Translations under genes and position numbers: made by a program
Shown: piece by piece, positions 302-5,445 of the stretch
Layout: each line of letters starts with the position of its first letter
Position numbering within the stretch: position 1 is the stretch's first letter
Virus record (IMG/VR): IMGVR_UViG_3300029566_000030
Strand: one strand, 5' to 3'
From: a virus
DNA: 39,275 bases
Notes under the pieces: generated by a model
The model's database searches: none
Seen by the model: the letters and a program-made list of their open reading frames with translations, nothing else
What the model was told of the DNA's origin: nothing

Positions 302-421
302 GCGCGGAGGGATGGATAGACTCCTTTCTTCTTTCATTTCTTCTTTCGTGGTTGTTAGGGGATATGTTTGCGCACTGCCGTCCTCGGTGTTGGTAGCACC
401 GAGGACGGCGTTTTTTATTTT
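302..421 (+). ncRNA. Candidate ~115-nt antisense sRNA (putative promoter to strong terminator), CU-rich body
   Basis: No credible ORF or RBS. The body contains ctcctttcttctttcatttcttctttc (anti-SD-like). It is bounded by the promoter candidate and the 376-421 terminator. Confidence 0.3.
376..421 (+). terminator. Strong plus-strand intrinsic terminator abutting the repressor stop codon
   Basis: A 13-14 bp stem (377-389 pairs with 397-410) with a 7-nt loop, followed by TTTTTTATTTT. On the minus strand there is no U tract after the hairpin, so cI-to-int readthrough remains possible. Confidence 0.8.
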
Positions 422-1457
422 ATCCCGGATAGCTGCCGAGAACACGGCCCAGGGTATAAAGGGTATCGCCTTCGGAGACGATGATATCTTTGTAAGCTTG
501 GTTGAGCGAGTGCAGACGTACTGTGCCGTTCTCTCGATCTACAATAAGCTGCTTGATATAGGAGTTTCCGTTCAGGGCGAATATGCCGATCTCCCCGTCA
601 TTGAGGACCGGCGTAGACTGGACGAATGCCGTGCTTCCGTTTTTGAACTTCGGCATCATCGAGTCGCCAGAGATCGGAACGCCATAGTTTGTTCCGGATG
701 GGATTATGCCGGAAGGATATTGCTCCATGTGCGTAACAGGCGTATCACTCAAGTAGTTACCGAGGCCTGCAGCGGCAGCTTCTTCAAAAACTGTAAGCTC
801 GTCGAAATTGTCCTCCTTGCGGTGGTTGATCTTCGCCTTCGGAAAGGGGAGAACGGTTTGCTTAACGGGGGCGGGCTTCGTGTCAGATTTAAGGGGGTCG
901 ATTTGAGAGTTACTGCACGGGAGTTCATCTAAATCTTCCACATAAGGATCCAGCGCGGTATCCACAATGTTGCGGATCGGCTGTCCGGCCTTCAGGTAAG
1001 CGTGCAGGAGGAGCATGGTCTTTTCGGCCTGGCTGCCGTCGAACTGGTCAACGGTGCCGATGATATCAGTCAGAGAGAGGGCGACGTTTCGCTCCAAAGC
1101 TTTGTAATATAGCAAGGCGATTCTCTTACTGTCCTCGCAGGCATAGATATTATGGATGCTGTGCTCTGTGCCGAAGAGCCGACGGAGCTCATCTATTGCG
1201 GCGGGGCGACCGGTTTTATTATCATCGGCGATGGCATCTAAGAGGGCCAACGTATCATCGCTATACCCCATCAAATAAGCGGGTGTCACATCAAATATTC
1301 TGGCGAACTCTGCAATTTTCGAGCGGGGCAAATCAACTTTACCGGATTCTATTTTTGCAATAGATGATCTGTCACCATACCCTGCCAGATCGGCTAAGTG
1401 CTGCTGAGACCACCCTCGGGAAGTGCGAAGCGCTTTGATGTTTTCGTGTAATTCCAT
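420..1457 (-). CDS. CI-like prophage repressor: N-terminal XRE HTH, long central helical domain, C-terminal S24/LexA-type autopeptidase
   Basis: MELHENIKALRTSRGWSQQHLADLAGYGDRSSIAKIESGK (HTH). C-terminal GVPISGDSMMPKF...SYIKQL (Ser/Lys dyad). ATG at 1457 is preceded by GAGGAGGGGA. The track ORF start at 1490 lacks an RBS. Confidence 0.9.
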   Translation of the reverse strand: MELHENIKALRTSRGWSQQHLADLAGYGDRSSIAKIESGKVDLPRSKIAEFARIFDVTPAYLMGYSDDTLALLDAIADDNKTGRPAAIDELRRLFGTEHSIHNIYACEDSKRIALLYYKALERNVALSLTDIIGTVDQFDGSQAEKTMLLLHAYLKAGQPIRNIVDTALDPYVEDLDELPCSNSQIDPLKSDTKPAPVKQTVLPFPKAKINHRKEDNFDELTVFEEAAAAGLGNYLSDTPVTHMEQYPSGIIPSGTNYGVPISGDSMMPKFKNGSTAFVQSTPVLNDGEIGIFALNGNSYIKQLIVDRENGTVRLHSLNQAYKDIIVSEGDTLYTLGRVLGSYPG

Positions 1458-1480
1458 TGAAGTCCCCTCCTCAATGAGGA

Positions 1481-1509
1481 AATATATCATGAGCGTGAAT
1501 TTGTGTCAA
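1481..1509 (-). promoter_or_regulatory. Leftward repressor promoter (TTGACA-17-TATATT)
   Basis: The minus strand reads TTGACA (1509..1504), 17 nt, TATATT (1486..1481). It lies directly upstream of the repressor SD. Confidence 0.75.
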
Positions 1510-2663: not shown

Positions 2664-2845
2664 GAACAGCTGAAGGCGTGATGGCCATTATCCGTGAGCA
2701 GGATCCGAAAACACAGGTCACCGTGCACGCGATTCGGCGCCTGATTGCAAGTGGAAAAGTCCCAGTGACGTGCTGCGGACGGAAATACTTGGTCGATGCT
2801 GATGCAATGATCGAGTTTATAGCGCGAGGAGGTGAGCCAGCGTGA
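2651..2845 (+). CDS. Excisionase-family / MerR-like HTH DNA-binding protein (64 aa)
   Basis: ATG at 2651 follows AAGGAG. VTVHAIRRLIASGKVPVTCCGRKYLVDADAMIEFI resembles Xis-type winged helices. Confidence 0.7.
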   Translation: MARMRTAEGVMAIIREQDPKTQVTVHAIRRLIASGKVPVTCCGRKYLVDADAMIEFIARGGEPA

Positions 2846-3360
2846 ACCGAGGCACCCGCGATACCATCTGCGCCACTATTGGCCTGCTGATTGTAATTGC
2901 TTTGCTGACTACTGTAGCCGCGCTGGACTCTCCTGGTGAAATGGACGAGCCGGATGCGTTATCGTCAGCGGCGCCGGAGCCGCGCGTAGAGATGCCGGAA
3001 GACAGCCTGCCAGCTGAGGAGTATGCGTACTGCAGCGACGTGTGCCTCGGACTGTTTGAGCTTACGGCCTACTGCCCATGCTCAGCCTGTTGCGGCAAGA
3101 ATGACGGTATTACCGCCACCGGCACTGTGGCCACTGAGGGACGTACCGTTGCAGTCGATCCGACCGTTATTCCCTACGGCACAACCATCGAAGTGATCTA
3201 TGCCGATGGCAGCTCTGCGCGCTATGTCGCCGAGGACTGCGGCGGCGCAATCAAAGCCCAGCGCCTGGACGTGTTCTTCGCGGATCATCAGACCGCGCGC
3301 GAATACGGCGTCCGGACGGCCTATGTCTTTCTTGTCCAGGAAGGAGGCGGCAATGAATAA
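2842..3360 (+). CDS. 3D-domain (RlpA-like double-psi beta-barrel) cell-wall protein with N-terminal membrane anchor
   Basis: TM segment ICATIGLLIVIALLTTVAAL. FELTAYCPCSACCGKNDGITATGT...GRTVAVDP...IPYGT...DCGGAIK..RLDVFF is a typical 3D domain. GTG start overlaps the previous stop. Confidence 0.85.
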   Translation: MNRGTRDTICATIGLLIVIALLTTVAALDSPGEMDEPDALSSAAPEPRVEMPEDSLPAEEYAYCSDVCLGLFELTAYCPCSACCGKNDGITATGTVATEGRTVAVDPTVIPYGTTIEVIYADGSSARYVAEDCGGAIKAQRLDVFFADHQTAREYGVRTAYVFLVQEGGGNE

Positions 3361-3622
3361 GGATTGCTCAAAAGTTTCGATTGAGCGTGGATCGGATGGC
3401 AGATTCACGGTGCTGCTGACTGGTAGCAAAGACGATATAAGGATGCTTTGGACCATGCTCAGCGTGAGTGTTTCCAAAGCGACCAAGACCCCGCTTCCTG
3501 TGCTGTGCGCAGTCTGTTCTACCGCAGGCCCAGCTATTGAAAATATGATGGGACGAAATGGCACGACCGTCGACATGAGCGTCCTTGGCAGATTCGCAAA
3601 GGGAAGGGGAGACGCCCCATGA
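3353..3622 (+). CDS. Hypothetical early protein (89 aa)
   Basis: ATG at 3353 follows GGAAGGAGG. ATGAATAA overlaps the upstream stop. Confidence 0.6.
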   Translation: MNKDCSKVSIERGSDGRFTVLLTGSKDDIRMLWTMLSVSVSKATKTPLPVLCAVCSTAGPAIENMMGRNGTTVDMSVLGRFAKGRGDAP

Positions 3623-3834
3623 TCCGCTGCGCATACTGCGACAGCGTTACGCTGGCGCTTGATCTCAATGGCGTCGATGCCCACGTCTGTCCCCTCTGCG
3701 GCGCTGTATTTGCCCGCCGGTACGGAAATACCTATTCCTTCATTGCTGATCTGAAAGGTGCTCAGGGCGTCAAGGAGCTTCTGCACTCTGTGCGACCGCA
3801 CGATCCACTGTATCGGTCAATCATCACAGCGTAG
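3619..3834 (+). CDS. Small zinc-ribbon protein (71 aa)
   Basis: CAYCDS...CPLCG motif pair. ATGA start/stop coupling with the upstream gene. Confidence 0.6.
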   Translation: MIRCAYCDSVTLALDLNGVDAHVCPLCGAVFARRYGNTYSFIADLKGAQGVKELLHSVRPHDPLYRSIITA

Positions 3835-4219
3835 GCCTTGAGAGCTTGGCCCAGATGGTCGAGTTGTCGGGCATGGACTGGCTCTATCATCTGGGCTAAG
3901 CGCCCGAGGGATAGTACCCTCCTTTCTAACAAAAAGCGGCCCCGTAAGCAGCCGCTCGCCGTCTGAGAGATGGTGCCCCAGTGCAATTCTGGCAGGGAGA
4001 CAAGCGGCAGCGCTCATGGTCGATGCATTTCTGGAAAGAAAAGGGGCGGTTCGATTCCGCCCTGCCGCATAGAGGGAGACGTTCCTGCCCTCTGCCGGGC
4101 GTGTACCCGGCACGTCCACTCTTTCACTGCCGAGTGCCGCAGCGCCGACTAACCCTCCCTGCTGCGGTGTCCGGCAGAGGGCAGAAACTCTCTATCCTGA
4201 AGGAAAGGAGGAAACGAAT
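3835..4219 (+). other. 386-nt GC-rich, hairpin-dense noncoding island between the early and recombination operons
   Basis: No credible ORF. Stems include 3849-3857/3888-3896, 3906-3910/3917-3921, 3935-3940/3951-3956, 4094-4099/4106-4111 and 4127-4143/4161-4177. A 14-bp long-range pairing joins 4085-4098 and 4171-4184. Confidence 0.6.
4004..4069 (+). ncRNA. tRNA-like minihelix: 7-bp acceptor stem and canonical T-arm, but no D-arm and a GGAA tetraloop in place of an anticodon loop
   Basis: GCGGCAG (4004-4010) pairs with CTGCCGC (4062-4068). T-arm is GGCGG-TTCGATT-CCGCC (4045-4061). TTTCT-GGAA-AGAAA forms a hairpin. Discriminator is A, with no encoded CCA. Confidence 0.5.
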
Positions 4220-4576
4220 TTGGAAGATCTCAGCAAGCGGTCAATTATTGACATGGCACGCGGTGCCATTAAGGAACGCGTGGACTACGAGATGACCAGA
4301 GTTGTCGAGAATATTCTTGATCCCAACACCTCGGCAACCGCAGCGCGCAAAATCACCATTACACTCAACCTCAAGCCAGACGATACGCGCCAGAACATTG
4401 CTGTAAGTTGTGTGGCCAAGTCCACTTTGGCTGCAACCAACCCCGTCACTACAGCTCTCTATGTCGCCGATGAGGAATCCATCGTTGAGATGGTTCCGCA
4501 GATCCCTGGGCAGTTGGCGGTTGACGCCAGCGAGCAGGAAGCTCCGCCCATGCTCAAGCTCATTCAAACCGCTTAA
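4220..4576 (+). CDS. Conserved-looking phage protein (118 aa), function unknown
   Basis: TTG start 8 nt after AAGGAGG. First gene of the recombination operon. Confidence 0.7.
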   Translation: MEDLSKRSIIDMARGAIKERVDYEMTRVVENILDPNTSATAARKITITLNLKPDDTRQNIAVSCVAKSTLAATNPVTTALYVADEESIVEMVPQIPGQLAVDASEQEAPPMLKLIQTA

Positions 4577-4600
4577 TTTTAGGAAAGGAAGTACATTCCC

Positions 4601-5341
4601 ATGCTCAAAGAAGCCATTCAGTATGTGCTCGAGAATATGCGCCCGGAGGCCCAGAACCTCGGCAATCGCGCATATATCATCACCCAGAAGGGCGCGCAGG
4701 AGGTCATCGAGACTCCCATCGCGCCGGATACCGTTCCCCTGCATAGTCTCGACTCCATCGTGAAGATGATCCGTACCGAGGCTATCCATCTGGCGGATGT
4801 CAATACCCCTGCACTTTTCGTCAATATCCCTTCGCCCACCAATGTGGTCTGCTTCTCTCAGCCGGACTATGAGCAGCGCTGCCACCGCACGGTCTATTAC
4901 TCTGCGGACGCAACTGATGTTCCCGGCTGGGATGCGAAAGTCACGCTCGGCTTTGAAGAGGCCCAGATTGCGCTGCGTACCCGCTTCCAGGAGACCCCAG
5001 ACTCGCTCTATGCGATGAAGCTCGTCAACGACATTTCTCTCGGTGCCAAGGTCATCTACAACGACAACGGTGTTGCCACTACCGTGACCACCCAAAAGGG
5101 CGTCGCACTCCAGACCAATGAGCAGATCCGGCCCATTGTCAAGCTCCGCCCTTATCGCACGTTCCAAGAGGTCGAACAGCCTGAAAGCACGTTCCTCATC
5201 CGCATCAGCGACCGCGGCATTTCGTTCATCGAGGCCGATGGCGGTATGTGGCGCCTGACGGCCCGCAACACCATCAAGGCATTCCTGGAGGAGAATCTTG
5301 CTGCCGAGATCGAGAGCGGCAAGCTCGTTGTCGCCCTGTGA
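4601..5341 (+). CDS. Hypothetical phage protein (246 aa) of the recombination module
   Basis: AGGAAAGGAAG SD. Long ORF with coding-like composition. No family recognised with certainty. Confidence 0.8.
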   Translation: MLKEAIQYVLENMRPEAQNLGNRAYIITQKGAQEVIETPIAPDTVPLHSLDSIVKMIRTEAIHLADVNTPALFVNIPSPTNVVCFSQPDYEQRCHRTVYYSADATDVPGWDAKVTLGFEEAQIALRTRFQETPDSLYAMKLVNDISLGAKVIYNDNGVATTVTTQKGVALQTNEQIRPIVKLRPYRTFQEVEQPESTFLIRISDRGISFIEADGGMWRLTARNTIKAFLEENLAAEIESGKLVVAL

Positions 5342-5343
5342 GC

Positions 5344-5410
5344 AAAAAAATCCCCTGCAGGTCTCACACACCTGCAGGGGAACGATTGGCACCATACCAA
5401 TCCTTAGTTG
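5344..5410 (-). ncRNA. Candidate ~66-nt antisense sRNA (oop-like) with a 5' hairpin and an intrinsic terminator
   Basis: Minus strand: 5' hairpin GATTGG-tatggtg-CCAATC, then an 11-bp stem CCCCTGCAGGT/ACCTGCAGGGG (5352-5380) followed by A then TTTTTTT. Confidence 0.5.
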
Positions 5411-5416
5411 CGCCCT

Positions 5417-5445
5417 ATTGTAAGGGCAGAAAGCGAGTTTGTCAA
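5417..5445 (-). promoter_or_regulatory. Near-consensus minus-strand promoter TTGACA-17-TACAAT overlapping the ATPase start codon
   Basis: Reverse complement of 5401-5447 reads caTTGACAaactcgctttctgccctTACAATagggcgca. Confidence 0.6.

What the first reader, a model, noticed from the sequence alone, without database searches (positions are those of the whole stretch)
3835..4219. 386-nt hairpin-dense noncoding island with mutually exclusive pairings upstream of the recombination operon
A GC-rich stretch with no credible ORF separates the early genes from the recombination module. The three track ORFs here are Arg/Cys-rich and look like noise. The region carries at least seven stems.

It includes a 14-bp perfect long-range pairing, CTGCCCTCTGCCGG 4085-4098 with CCGGCAGAGGGCAG 4171-4184. 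That pairing competes with two local hairpins, 4094-4111 and 4127-4177, for the same nucleotides. This is the logic of an attenuator or riboswitch-like switch, or of nut/put-type antitermination RNA. None of the hairpins has a U tract. The structure ends about 20 nt before the SD of the next gene.

It could also be an ornate phage ncRNA. Several large structured RNAs of unknown function are known to sit next to tRNA-like elements in Firmicutes prophages.
Basis: partly seen in the sequence, partly recalled or inferred. Interest (0 to 1): 0.7.

Follow-up and report, generated by a model that had tools for sequence, protein, structure and literature searches.

The report
Phage intercistronic RNA processing cassette
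The noncoding island is real, and is best read as a patchwork of three structured RNA pieces inside a phage operon transcript (a long hairpin, a tRNA look-alike that cannot decode, and a conserved ~105-nt branched RNA motif absent from Rfam) that most likely cut, protect and tune the messenger RNA between two gene modules.

Summary
Window 3835-4219 is noncoding and far more structured than chance (z = -7.4). The 14-bp long-range pairing is real and extends to about 19-21 bp. The island is composite.

(1) 4081-4188 is a ~105-nt motif, a long P1 helix enclosing two hairpins. It recurs in at least 25 distinct sequences from Oscillospiraceae-associated phages. It is always sense-strand and intercistronic, and lies upstream of recombination, portal or tail genes. 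P1 is supported by covariation and strand-specific G-U pairs. There is no Rfam match.

(2) 3835-4082 is an optional, lineage-specific insert. It holds a very stable long hairpin, a 16S-tail-like anti-SD stretch complementary to the next gene's ribosome-binding site, and a 65-nt tRNA-like element (4004-4068). That element has a perfect acceptor stem and T-arm, but a GGAA-capped stem replaces the anticodon loop.

Sister phages carry a hammerhead ribozyme at the same junction.

Best reading (inferred, about 0.45): an mRNA punctuation cassette, cut by RNase P and RNase Z at the tRNA mimic, with stable helices acting as nuclease sites or barriers and tuning downstream translation.

A riboswitch or terminator-type attenuator is unlikely.

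The parts
3836..3909 (+). H1: a long irregular hairpin of about 24-29 bp (16-bp core 3844-3859 / 3886-3901). It starts 2 nt after the stop codon of the 71-aa gene and is part of the optional insert.
   Evidence: I1: 28-nt arms.: -46.4 kcal/mol, z = -6.38; substitutions at 3864, 3868 and 3897 keep pairing through G-U or G-C on the + strand.
3904..3931 (+). Anti-TIR segment. The core CCUCCUUUCU (3918-3927) resembles the 3' tail of Firmicutes 16S rRNA (from memory). It is complementary to the SD and start region of the next gene (4198-4223).
   Evidence: I7: 9 nt, 100%; 10-bp helix 3918-3927 / 4202-4211, plus 3904-3908 / 4219-4223; duplex -22.4 kcal/mol, and 36 of 2000 dinucleotide shuffles reach a 9-nt perfect complement.
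3935..3997 (+). H2 (3935-3940 / 3951-3956), H3 (3957-3964 / 3968-3975) and H4 (3977-3984 / 3992-3997): small hairpins that are weakly supported on their own. The H2 stem GCGGC/GCCGC duplicates the acceptor stem of the tRNA-like element, so the two can swap partners.
   Evidence: z = -1.57 only; the global MFE pairs 3936-3940 with 4064-4068 and 3951-3956 with 4003-4008; on the minus strand H2 reads as a terminator-like hairpin followed by a T run.
4004..4069 (+). tRNA-like element. Acceptor stem 4004-4010 / 4062-4068 (7 bp, perfect). Degenerate D-like arm 4011-4027 with GG in its loop. Stem 4028-4032 / 4037-4041 capped by the GNRA tetraloop GGAA (4033-4036), where the anticodon arm would be. 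Variable region 4042-4044. T stem 4045-4049 / 4057-4061. T loop UUCGAUU 4050-4056. Discriminator A4069, followed by UAG with no CCA.
   Evidence: tRNA-Sec model 23.5 bits, E = 0.04, below the gathering score of 47. ARAGORN finds nothing; coordinates; the same acceptor stem occurs in real phage tRNAs, mostly tRNA-Gly; variation in relatives is confined to the variable region, apart from one T-stem mismatch.
4081..4188 (+). Conserved ~105-nt intercistronic RNA motif (covariance-model hit 4082-4187). P1 is 4081-4101 / 4168-4188. P2 is 4105-4115 / 4126-4135, with the pyrimidine-rich loop CCACUCUUUC at 4116-4125. P3 is 4136-4144 / 4160-4168.
   Evidence: z = -6.21; 25 distinct sequences; P1 96.6% paired; 5 pairs with double changes; 0 of 500 shuffles reach the covariation score; 79.9 bits on the + strand against 34.3 on the minus strand.
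4094..4177 (+). Alternative (tandem) pairings: a:b hairpin 4094-4099 / 4106-4111 (or 4097-4104 / 4110-4117), and c:d plus P3 hairpin 4127-4143 / 4161-4177. They compete with the inner part of P1 and with P2.
   Evidence: I4; the tandem fold is feasible in all 26 sequences, 0.4-10.2 kcal/mol above the nested fold, and 9.3 in the window.
4189..4222 (+). Leader of the next gene. The pyrimidine stretch CUCUCUAUCCU (4189-4199) can pair locally with the SD. SD GAAAGGAGG is at 4203-4211 and the start codon TTG is at 4220-4222 (gene 4220-4576, phrog_997).
   Evidence: mean P(unpaired) of the SD is 0.17 in the window and 0.17-0.34 in most relatives; phrog_997, E = 1.3e-30; the TTG aligns with ATG in homologues.

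Best explanation
The island is a cis-acting mRNA punctuation cassette in the early rightward operon of a temperate Oscillospiraceae phage. It was assembled from separable modules.

**Shown**
- The 3' third (4081-4188) belongs to a family of sense-strand, intercistronic structured RNA elements. The family is built on a 16-21 bp GC-rich helix P1 with two apical hairpins, and it occurs between genes of early and late phage operons.
- The 5' two-thirds (3835-4082) is an optional, lineage-specific insert. It contains a very stable long hairpin, an anti-SD stretch and a tRNA-shaped element that retains exactly the acceptor and T-arm half of a tRNA.

**Inferred mechanism**
1. The polycistronic transcript from the promoter near 1540-1570 is cut by host RNase P at 4003/4004. 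It is probably also cut by RNase Z after A4069, because there is no CCA and a U follows the discriminator.
2. This uncouples the early-gene mRNA, now ending in hairpins H1-H4, from the recombination-module mRNA, now starting about 12 nt before P1.
3. P1 then acts as a nuclease determinant: a 5' barrier against RNase J-type exonuclease and/or an RNase III site.
4. Cutting also separates the anti-SD segment (3904-3931) from the ribosome-binding site it can mask (4198-4223), so processing would license translation of the first recombination-module gene.

In sister phages a hammerhead ribozyme at the same junction would supply the cut instead.
For: **Structure is real and acts on the + strand RNA**
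- z = -7.4 for the island; H1 z = -6.4; motif z = -6.2.
- P1 covariation: 19 pairs, 96.6% paired, UA/AU/GC exchange at one pair, 0 of 500 shuffles, slid controls 35-54% paired.
- Further compensatory change inside the P1 core in L176: CUGCC/GGCAG to CCACC/GGUGG.
- One-sided changes are almost all G-U on the + strand.
- The covariance model scores about 80 bits on the + strand against about 35 on the minus strand.

**Generic intercistronic role**
- The motif starts 5-20 nt after an upstream stop codon and ends 15-40 nt before the next SD.
- It lies upstream of phrog_997 homologues in 34 of 80 protein-anchored loci.
- It also lies upstream of a portal gene (L116, L131, L148), of tail-module genes before a tail sheath gene (L139), and of another exonuclease module (L024, L093).
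- It is always in the sense orientation.

**Modularity**
- L006-L010 have the motif without the 248-nt insert.
- L024 and L238 join the insert to a different motif variant and a different gene.

**Processing theme at this junction**
- L012, L014, L015 and L215/L217 carry a type I hammerhead core upstream of the same gene. All 17 stem pairs are kept, both stem substitutions are compensatory, and the core is invariant.
- Perreault et al. 2011 showed that prophage hammerheads flank genes. They interpreted this as processing of long phage transcripts, including one just upstream of the first gene of a halovirus early replication operon (PMC3088659).

**tRNA-like element**
- Perfect 7-bp acceptor stem, 5-bp T stem and canonical UUCGAUU loop.
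- RNase P is known to cleave non-tRNA substrates including phage C4 RNA precursors and polycistronic mRNAs (PMC11143913).

**Anti-SD:SD**
- 9 nt perfect (10 bp with G-U), -22.4 kcal/mol, reached by 1.8% of shuffles.
Against: - No cleavage, RNA end or half-life data exist. Every enzymatic step is inference.
- The tRNA-like element is confined to one closely related gut-phage lineage, so covariation cannot be tested. It could be a decaying tRNA gene.
- The global MFE actually disrupts its acceptor stem in favour of pairing with H2.
- Rfam does not call the hammerhead candidates. They carry an extra U after CUGAUGA whose effect on activity is unknown.
- If P1 were itself a processing site, the additional ribozyme or tRNA mimic would seem redundant.
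- Many relatives of the downstream gene have no structured element at all, so the element is dispensable for the gene.
- The strong sequence conservation of the P1 core (CUGCCGGGCG...CGUCCGGCAG) exceeds what a mere barrier helix needs. Part of that conservation comes from my search patterns.
Confidence: 0.45

Rival explanations
1. Conformational switch controlling translation. The motif toggles between a nested fold (a:d plus b:c) and a tandem fold (a:b plus c:d). The toggle could be driven by the ribosome terminating just upstream or by co-transcriptional kinetics. It would expose or mask the pyrimidine tract and SD, coupling downstream translation to upstream translation.
For: - Segments a and c are near-duplicates, as are b and d. 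They are identical 11-mers in the L183 type.
- Both topologies are feasible in all 26 sequences, within 0.4-10 kcal/mol.
- P1 begins 5-20 nt after the upstream stop codon.
- The SD is mostly paired in ensemble predictions.
- Pyrimidine loops are anti-SD-like.
Against: - The nested fold is favoured in every case, by 9.3 kcal/mol in the window.
- P1 is very stable.
- In the window and in L012-L015, 130-250 nt separate the stop codon from P1, which removes ribosome coupling.
- Deletion variants L180/L181 and L176 lack a:b, b:c and the tract, yet persist.
- CCGG is self-complementary, so some alternative pairing comes for free.
Confidence: 0.15
2. Neutral or selfish relics: a decayed phage tRNA gene plus palindromic hairpins that persist without adaptive function. 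Any RNase P cut would be incidental.
For: - The insert is lineage-restricted and optional.
- The D arm looks like a degraded GCUCA..GG..A arm, and the acceptor stem matches phage tRNA-Gly genes.
- Many relatives lack any element.
Against: - The motif shows covariation, strand-specific G-U pairs and constant sense orientation across unrelated gene contexts.
- The anticodon arm is replaced by a perfect 5-bp stem with a GNRA loop rather than random decay.
- The acceptor and T arm are intact in nearly all copies.
Confidence: 0.1
3. Trans-acting RNA product(s). The insert encodes a stable small RNA, such as H1-H4 released by RNase P, or the excised tRNA mimic itself. The tRNA mimic could act as a decoy or cofactor for a host or defence enzyme that recognises the tRNA acceptor and T arm.
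For: - H1 is exceptionally stable.
- The tRNA mimic keeps precisely the half recognised by RNase P, RNase Z and the CCA-adding enzyme (established knowledge, from memory).
- The insert behaves as a portable unit.
Against: - No promoter or + strand terminator of its own.
- No homologues in other contexts.
- No Rfam family.
- Nothing links it to a defence or counter-defence gene.
Confidence: 0.08
4. DNA-level element: a miniature inverted-repeat element, a module-boundary recombination sequence, or a single-strand initiation or origin structure near the replication genes.
For: - About 100 bp with 16-19 bp terminal inverted repeats, and two tandem copies in L132.
- A mosaic breakpoint lies exactly in segment a in L024.
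- L180/L181 carry a deletion between repeats a and c.
- The motif is found at different junctions in different phages.
Against: - It is always in the sense orientation relative to flanking genes.
- One-sided changes are G-U only on the + strand, which would be A-C mismatches in the other strand.
- No target-site duplication is visible.
- There is one copy in the 39-kb window.
- Location in late structural operons argues against an origin.
Confidence: 0.08
5. Processive antitermination site of the nut or put type. The hairpins plus the single-stranded CUCUUU tract (boxA-like, from memory) would modify RNA polymerase before it enters the recombination and replication module.
For: - In the window it sits between the cro-side early genes and the replication and recombination module, the position of lambda nutR or HK022 putR.
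- The tract CUCUUU(G/C)A recurs in most variants.
Against: - No convincing + strand intrinsic terminator lies downstream.
- The motif also lies between late structural genes.
- Variants lack the tract.
- It lies 2.5 kb from the promoter.
- No N-like partner was identified.
Confidence: 0.07

Closest known systems
Host RNase III processing sites in phage polycistronic mRNAs (T7 R0.3-R18.5, SP82 early mRNA, lambda N leader). Recalled from memory, not tested here.
   Same: Conserved, sense-strand, intercistronic stem-loops of about two helical turns. They are scattered through early and late operons and lie close to the next gene's ribosome-binding site.
   Different: No cleavage data. P1 is capped by a branched, sequence-conserved apical domain with duplicated CCGG segments. 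The host clade is Oscillospiraceae, whose RNase III specificity is unknown.
Hammerhead ribozymes flanking genes in prophages (Perreault et al. 2011, PMC3088659)
   Same: They occupy the same kind of intergenic position. Sister phages (L012, L014, L015, L215, L217) have a hammerhead core at exactly this junction, and the proposed role is processing long phage transcripts.
   Different: The window itself has no hammerhead. The sister-locus candidates have an extra U after CUGAUGA and are not called by Rfam.
tRNA-like processing signals: tRNA punctuation of organellar transcripts, MALAT1 mascRNA and MHV68 tRNA-miRNA chimeras (from memory), and RNase P cleavage of phage P1/P7 C4 RNA precursor and of polycistronic mRNAs (PMC11143913)
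   Same: A tRNA-shaped module embedded in a longer transcript. It keeps the acceptor and T-arm half needed by RNase P and RNase Z but has no decoding function.
   Different: It sits inside a bacteriophage mRNA between two gene modules. The anticodon loop is replaced by a GNRA-capped stem. Cleavage is untested and the element is known from only one lineage.
Transcribed palindromic repeats that alter mRNA fate (Neisseria Correia elements, REP/BIME). Recalled from memory.
   Same: About 100-nt inverted-repeat units found between genes. They are co-transcribed and form long hairpins that act as RNase III targets or exonuclease barriers.
   Different: Constant sense orientation, RNA-type covariation, no target duplications, a single copy per genome sampled, and carriage by phages.
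Riboswitches and attenuators; HK022 put and lambda nut
   Same: Structured leader upstream of a gene module, with alternative pairings and a boxA-like or anti-SD-like pyrimidine tract.
   Different: No terminator. P1 is too long and stable. The inner core is dispensable in natural variants. The motif also occurs in late structural operons.

Membership tests
Canonical tRNA gene | 7-bp acceptor stem and T arm with a UUCRANY-type loop | tested here: met
   4004-4010 / 4062-4068 pair perfectly. GGCGG-UUCGAUU-CCGCC lies at 4045-4061.
Canonical tRNA gene | 7-nt anticodon loop on a 5-bp stem, and a regular D arm | tested here: not met
   The stem UUUCU/AGAAA is capped by the 4-nt loop GGAA. The D-like arm is irregular and the element is 65 nt in total.
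Canonical tRNA gene | Recognised by ARAGORN or at the Rfam gathering score | tested here: not met
   ARAGORN finds 0 genes. Rfam at gathering finds nothing. The best clan hit is tRNA-Sec at 23.5 bits against a cut-off of 47.
RNase P / RNase Z substrate (tRNA-like minihelix) | Coaxial acceptor and T-arm helix; for RNase Z, no CCA after the discriminator | tested here: met
   Sequence features are present: A4069 is followed by UAG. This shows resemblance only.
RNase P / RNase Z substrate (tRNA-like minihelix) | Actual cleavage at the 5' and 3' ends | not testable with these tools
   Needs an in vitro assay or RNA end mapping.
Hammerhead ribozyme (in the window) | CUGANGA...GAAA...UH core with three stems | tested here: not met
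   No Rfam hit and no match to an explicit motif scan of the window.
Hammerhead ribozyme (sister loci L012, L014, L015, L215, L217) | Conserved core plus stems I-III kept by covariation | tested here: met
   17 of 17 pairs are kept in 4 sequences, there are 2 compensatory changes, and the core is invariant. An extra U follows A9.
Hammerhead ribozyme (sister loci L012, L014, L015, L215, L217) | Rfam gathering score, and self-cleavage | tested here: not met
   Rfam gives no call at gathering. Only a partial Hammerhead_II hit of 11.3 bits appears. Self-cleavage is not testable here.
Phage RNase III processing site | About 20 bp or more of near-continuous dsRNA in an intercistronic position of a phage operon | tested here: met
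   P1 has 19-21 bp and H1 about 24-29 bp. Intercistronic position is shown.
Phage RNase III processing site | Cleavage by host RNase III | not testable with these tools
   No enzyme or transcriptome data.
Riboswitch / transcription attenuator | Expression platform: an intrinsic terminator, or an SD-sequestering helix mutually exclusive with the aptamer | tested here: not met
   No + strand terminator in 3400-4700. SD masking is weak, local and outside the motif.
Riboswitch / transcription attenuator | A conserved ligand-binding core indispensable in all members | tested here: not met
   L180/L181 and L176 lack the inner core.
nut / put antitermination RNA | Lies between a promoter and terminators that it overrides | tested here: not met
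   No convincing downstream + strand terminator. The motif is also found between terminase-side and portal genes and in a tail module.
nut / put antitermination RNA | boxA-type single-stranded tract next to a hairpin | tested here: inconclusive
   A CUCUUU(G/C)A tract is present in most variants and absent in some. It is equally anti-SD-like.
Known large or ornate ncRNAs (GOLLD, ROOL, HEARO, YrlA and others) | Match to the Rfam covariance model | tested here: not met
   No hits at gathering in the window or in 11 related loci. None at E <= 10 in 3600-4400.
MITE / Correia-like repeat | Terminal inverted repeats, with either orientation, target-site duplication and multiple genomic copies | tested here: not met
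   Inverted repeats are present. But orientation is always sense, no duplication is seen and there is one copy in the window.

The most novel reading that the evidence does not exclude
The ~105-nt motif is P1 plus four duplicated CCGG-centred segments, with an almost invariant core CUGCCGGGCG...CGUCCGGCAG. It could be a new class of functional phage RNA rather than a passive hairpin. It might be a self-cleaving ribozyme doing the same job as the hammerheads that sit next to it or replace it at the same junctions. Alternatively it might be a deliberately bistable element that recruits a host factor to punctuate polycistronic transcripts in both early and late operons.
Probability: 0.1. Interest if true: 0.8.

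Novelty: new variant of a known kind. Interest (0 to 1): 0.5.

Why it matters
Three things would follow if the reading is right.
- Gut Oscillospiraceae phages would segment their operon transcripts with interchangeable RNA devices at the same junctions: a tRNA mimic, a hammerhead, or a conserved branched helix. That would be a compact natural toolbox for uncoupling mRNA decay and translation between modules.
- It would give a concrete, testable function to prophage hammerheads, which has been open since 2011.
- It would add a covariation-supported RNA motif family that is absent from Rfam 15.

The tRNA-shaped cutter with a GNRA cap is also a ready-made part for engineering operon processing in Firmicutes.

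Tried and rejected
- **Rfam.** Searched at gathering score on the window and 11 loci, and at E <= 10 on 3600-4400, L014 and L015. Only trivial miRNA-hairpin hits and sub-threshold tRNA-Sec and Hammerhead_II hits appeared.
- **ARAGORN.** Run on the window and on more than 100 loci. No tRNA or tmRNA at the junction.
- **attP fragment of a tRNA gene.** Rejected for the tRNA-like element because both acceptor strands are present and it lies about 2.5 kb inside the early operon, with no integrase gene identified among the ORFs annotated around it.
- **Bacterial Y RNA (YrlA).** Rejected: no Rfam hit, and the topology differs (judged from memory).
- **Invalid computation.** My first tandem-fold computation left segments a and d unpaired because of how the constraint was applied. 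It was replaced.
- **MAFFT and RNAalifold.** They could not align the motif interior, so only P1 has a formal covariation test. P2 and P3 rest on per-sequence folds.
- **Wider search for the tRNA-like element.** Two viral scans and the single metagenome scan found only the same lineage.
- **Identity of the downstream phrog_997 protein.** No Pfam, NCBIfam or PDB match. The AlphaFold model had pLDDT 57, so no fold search was run. Autoregulation by this protein could not be assessed, and is made unlikely by the motif's other gene contexts.
- **2023 IMG/VR csRNA catalogue (PMC10690425).** Could not be checked for this motif because no supplements are held.
- **Leaders next to hammerheads.** The leader after the hammerhead in L215, and the spacer between hammerhead and P1 in L014, are not significantly structured.
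Full report
**Context**

The window begins with a CI-like repressor (420-1490, minus strand; HTH plus S24 peptidase). Divergent sigma-70-like promoters lie at about 1481-1566. Small rightward early genes follow, then a 3D-domain protein (2842-3360), a 140-aa ORF and a 71-aa ORF ending at 3834.

After the island come:
- phrog_997 (4220-4576; PHROGs label 'replication terminator', not otherwise confirmed)
- phrog_1029
- an SbcC/AAA-like ATPase
- a PDDEXK (DUF3799) exonuclease
- SSB

Homologues of the phrog_997 protein and of the motif come from Flavonifractor plautii, Dysosmobacter, Oscillibacter and other Oscillospiraceae. This is therefore the early region of a temperate gut Oscillospiraceae phage.

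**Checking the observation**

The region 3835-4219 folds far better than shuffles on the + strand: -185.6 against -148.0 +/- 5.1 kcal/mol, z = -7.39. The minus strand gives z = -5.28.

The 14-bp pairing 4085-4098 / 4171-4184 is exact and extends to 4081-4101 / 4168-4188. No + strand hairpin has a U tract and there is no promoter-like site.

The ORFs in the island are not genes. Relatives delete 248 nt of it, and close relatives differ by 1-nt indels.

**The island is a mosaic**

BLAST of the island against loci fetched through the downstream protein shows three situations:
- L001-L005 carry the whole island at 97-99% identity.
- L006-L010 carry only the last ~135 nt (76% identity), placed directly after the stop codon of the same 71-aa gene.
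- L024 shares the first 268 nt at 99% and then switches, inside the conserved sequence CTGCCGGGCGT, to another variant of the 3' module followed by a different gene.

So 3835-4082 is an optional insert and 4081-4188 is a separate, portable module.

**The 3' module is a conserved RNA motif**

DNA-pattern scans of viral and genome collections, followed by a complementarity filter, gave 25 distinct sequences in about a dozen types.

On alignment A2, P1 has 19 pairs and 96.6% of cells are paired. Five pairs show changes on both sides; one pair exchanges UA (13), AU (7) and GC (5). The covariation score is 0.201 against 0.124 for shuffles, reached by 0 of 500 shuffles. Sliding the partner strand drops pairing to 35-54%.

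One-sided changes are nearly all G-U on the + strand. A covariance model scores about 80 bits on the + strand and about 35 on the minus strand.

In a sample anchored only on the downstream protein, 34 of 80 loci have the motif immediately upstream. That sample includes L176, whose P1 core itself covaries (CUGCC/GGCAG to CCACC/GGUGG).

The apical hairpin P3 has at least seven different GC-rich stems. P2 (b:c) has specific support in the two tandem copies of L132, for example GCGUCCGAACC/GGUUUGGGCGC. Only P1 has a formal test, because MAFFT could not align the interior.

No Rfam family matches.

**Where the motif sits**

It always starts 5-20 nt after an upstream stop codon and ends 15-40 nt before the next SD, in the sense orientation.

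The downstream gene is usually a phrog_997 homologue. In other phages it is:
- a portal gene followed by a head protease (L116, L131, L148)
- a tail-module block ending in a tail sheath gene (L139)
- a different exonuclease module (L024, L093)
- a small zinc-finger-like ORF (L132)

This rules out a gene-specific leader or autoregulatory operator. It also argues against an origin, or a nut site specific to the early operon.

**The mutually exclusive pairings**

Inside P1 lie four CCGG-centred segments:
- a = CUGCCGGGCG
- b = CGYCCGG or CCCGGC
- c = GCCGGRCG-like
- d = GCGUCCGGCAG

Segments a and c are near-duplicates, as are b and d. In the L183 type a and c are identical 11-mers. L180/L181 are natural deletions between a and c that leave one long hairpin.

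Consequently every one of 26 sequences can adopt either of two folds:
- a nested fold (a:d, b:c with a pyrimidine-rich loop, and P3)
- a tandem fold (an a:b hairpin, a single-stranded pyrimidine tract, and a c:d plus P3 hairpin)

The tandem fold is 0.4-10.2 kcal/mol less stable, and 9.3 kcal/mol less stable in the window (one search is invalid).

But CCGG is self-complementary, the nested fold always wins thermodynamically, and the deletion variants show the inner elements are dispensable.

**The optional insert**

H1 (3836-3909) is a ~24-29 bp hairpin with z = -6.4. H2-H4 are not significant on their own (z = -1.6).

Positions 3918-3927 (CCUCCUUUCU) resemble the Firmicutes 16S 3' tail (from memory). 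They form a 10-bp helix with the SD at 4202-4211. Adjacent pairs reach the start codon. The duplex energy is -22.4 kcal/mol, and a 9-nt perfect match is reached by 36 of 2000 shuffles.

Between these two partners lies the tRNA-like element 4004-4069. It has a perfect 7-bp acceptor stem, a 5-bp T stem with loop UUCGAUU, a degraded D-like arm, a 5-bp stem capped by GGAA instead of an anticodon loop, and discriminator A followed by UAG.

Genuine phage tRNAs, mostly tRNA-Gly, share its acceptor stem, so it probably derives from a tRNA. ARAGORN and Rfam reject it as a tRNA.

It occurs only in this gut-phage lineage and always in the same arrangement. Variation is confined to the variable region, plus one T-stem mismatch. 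Its structure therefore cannot be tested by covariation.

Among close copies of the insert, 5 of 7 substitutions in predicted stems keep pairing through G-U or G-C.

**Hammerheads at the same junction**

L012, L014 and L015 (upstream of the motif) and L215/L217 (no motif) carry this sequence upstream of the same gene:

CCCAC-CUGAUGA-U-GGCCAG...CUGGCC-GAAA-CGCCC...GGGCG-UC|GUGGG

All 17 stem pairs are kept in four sequences. The two stem substitutions are compensatory (stem I AU to GC, stem II CG to AU). The core is invariant.

Rfam does not call them, perhaps because of the extra U and the type I layout.

Perreault et al. 2011 report prophage hammerheads flanking genes or gene blocks. They propose processing of long phage transcripts, with one case just upstream of the first gene of an early replication operon (PMC3088659).

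**Mechanism (inference)**

A helix-rich, sense-strand element recurs at operon junctions. A self-cleaving ribozyme or a tRNA-shaped module sits next to it in different phages. Together these point to RNA processing and differential stability rather than ligand sensing.

In the window:
1. RNase P, and probably RNase Z, would excise the tRNA mimic.
2. The upstream mRNA would end in H1-H4, protecting its 3' end.
3. The downstream mRNA would begin about 12 nt before P1, which gives 5' protection or acts as an RNase III site.
4. The anti-SD segment would be severed from the ribosome-binding site.

RNase P cleavage of non-tRNA substrates, including phage and polycistronic RNAs, is documented (PMC11143913). 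The minimal acceptor and T-arm requirement, and the RNase Z preference for CCA-less precursors with a U after the discriminator, are from memory. None of these steps is shown here.

**Comparison and novelty**

The closest known systems are:
- phage RNase III sites (T7, SP82, lambda N leader)
- prophage hammerheads
- tRNA punctuation and mascRNA-type processing
- transcribed palindromic repeats

The motif is not a member of any Rfam family. It may or may not be among the anonymous IMG/VR csRNAs of PMC10690425.

I rate it a new variant of a known kind, of moderate interest. The most novel surviving reading is a new ribozyme or factor-recruiting bistable RNA, to which I give about 10%.

Noticed in passing
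window 5341-5445 (minus strand): The gap between the phrog_1029 gene and the ATPase gene holds a strong minus-strand promoter-like site (TTGACA-17-TACAAT, 11 of 12). It is followed by a 12-bp-stem intrinsic terminator with a T7 run. This is a candidate ~60-70 nt antisense small RNA.
   Followed up: no
L012 632-690, L014 2743-2800, L015 2746-2805, L215/L217 1295-1355: Type I hammerhead candidates upstream of phrog_997 homologues. They have a conserved extra U between A9 and stem II and are not recognised by Rfam.
   Followed up: partly
L132 minus strand, about 599-704 and 725-835: Two tandem copies of the motif separated by about 20 nt. The second is divergent (CCGCC instead of CUGCC, GCGCCCGGCAG instead of GCGUCCGGCAG) and has an 11-bp P2.
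   Followed up: partly
L180/L181 1407-1470; L183 1371-1469: A natural 35-nt deletion between two identical 11-nt direct repeats (CUGCCGGGCGG) inside the motif. It converts the branched element into one long hairpin.
   Followed up: yes
window 3934-3957 and 4044-4062 (minus strand): Read on the minus strand, H2 and the T arm look like intrinsic terminators (hairpin plus T run). They could stop antisense transcription entering the early region. No minus-strand promoter was found nearby.
   Followed up: no
window 3936-3956 with 4003-4010 / 4062-4068: The H2 stem (GCGGC/GCCGC) duplicates the acceptor stem of the tRNA-like element. The global MFE pairs H2 strands with acceptor strands instead of forming either hairpin, which is a second partner-swap possibility in the island.
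   Followed up: no
L240 minus strand 1121-1175; L243 7447-7501: An unrelated 55-nt mini tRNA-like sequence with the same acceptor stem and a T arm, but with too few nucleotides for both D and anticodon arms. It comes from a metagenome contig.
   Followed up: no
L068 minus strand, about 6874: A canonical-looking hammerhead (CUGACGAG...GAAAC...GUC) in an unrelated viral contig that was fetched by chance.
   Followed up: no
window 3619-3834: The 71-aa ORF just upstream has two CxxC pairs (zinc-ribbon-like) and no family match. It is linked to the motif in several but not all lineages.
   Followed up: no
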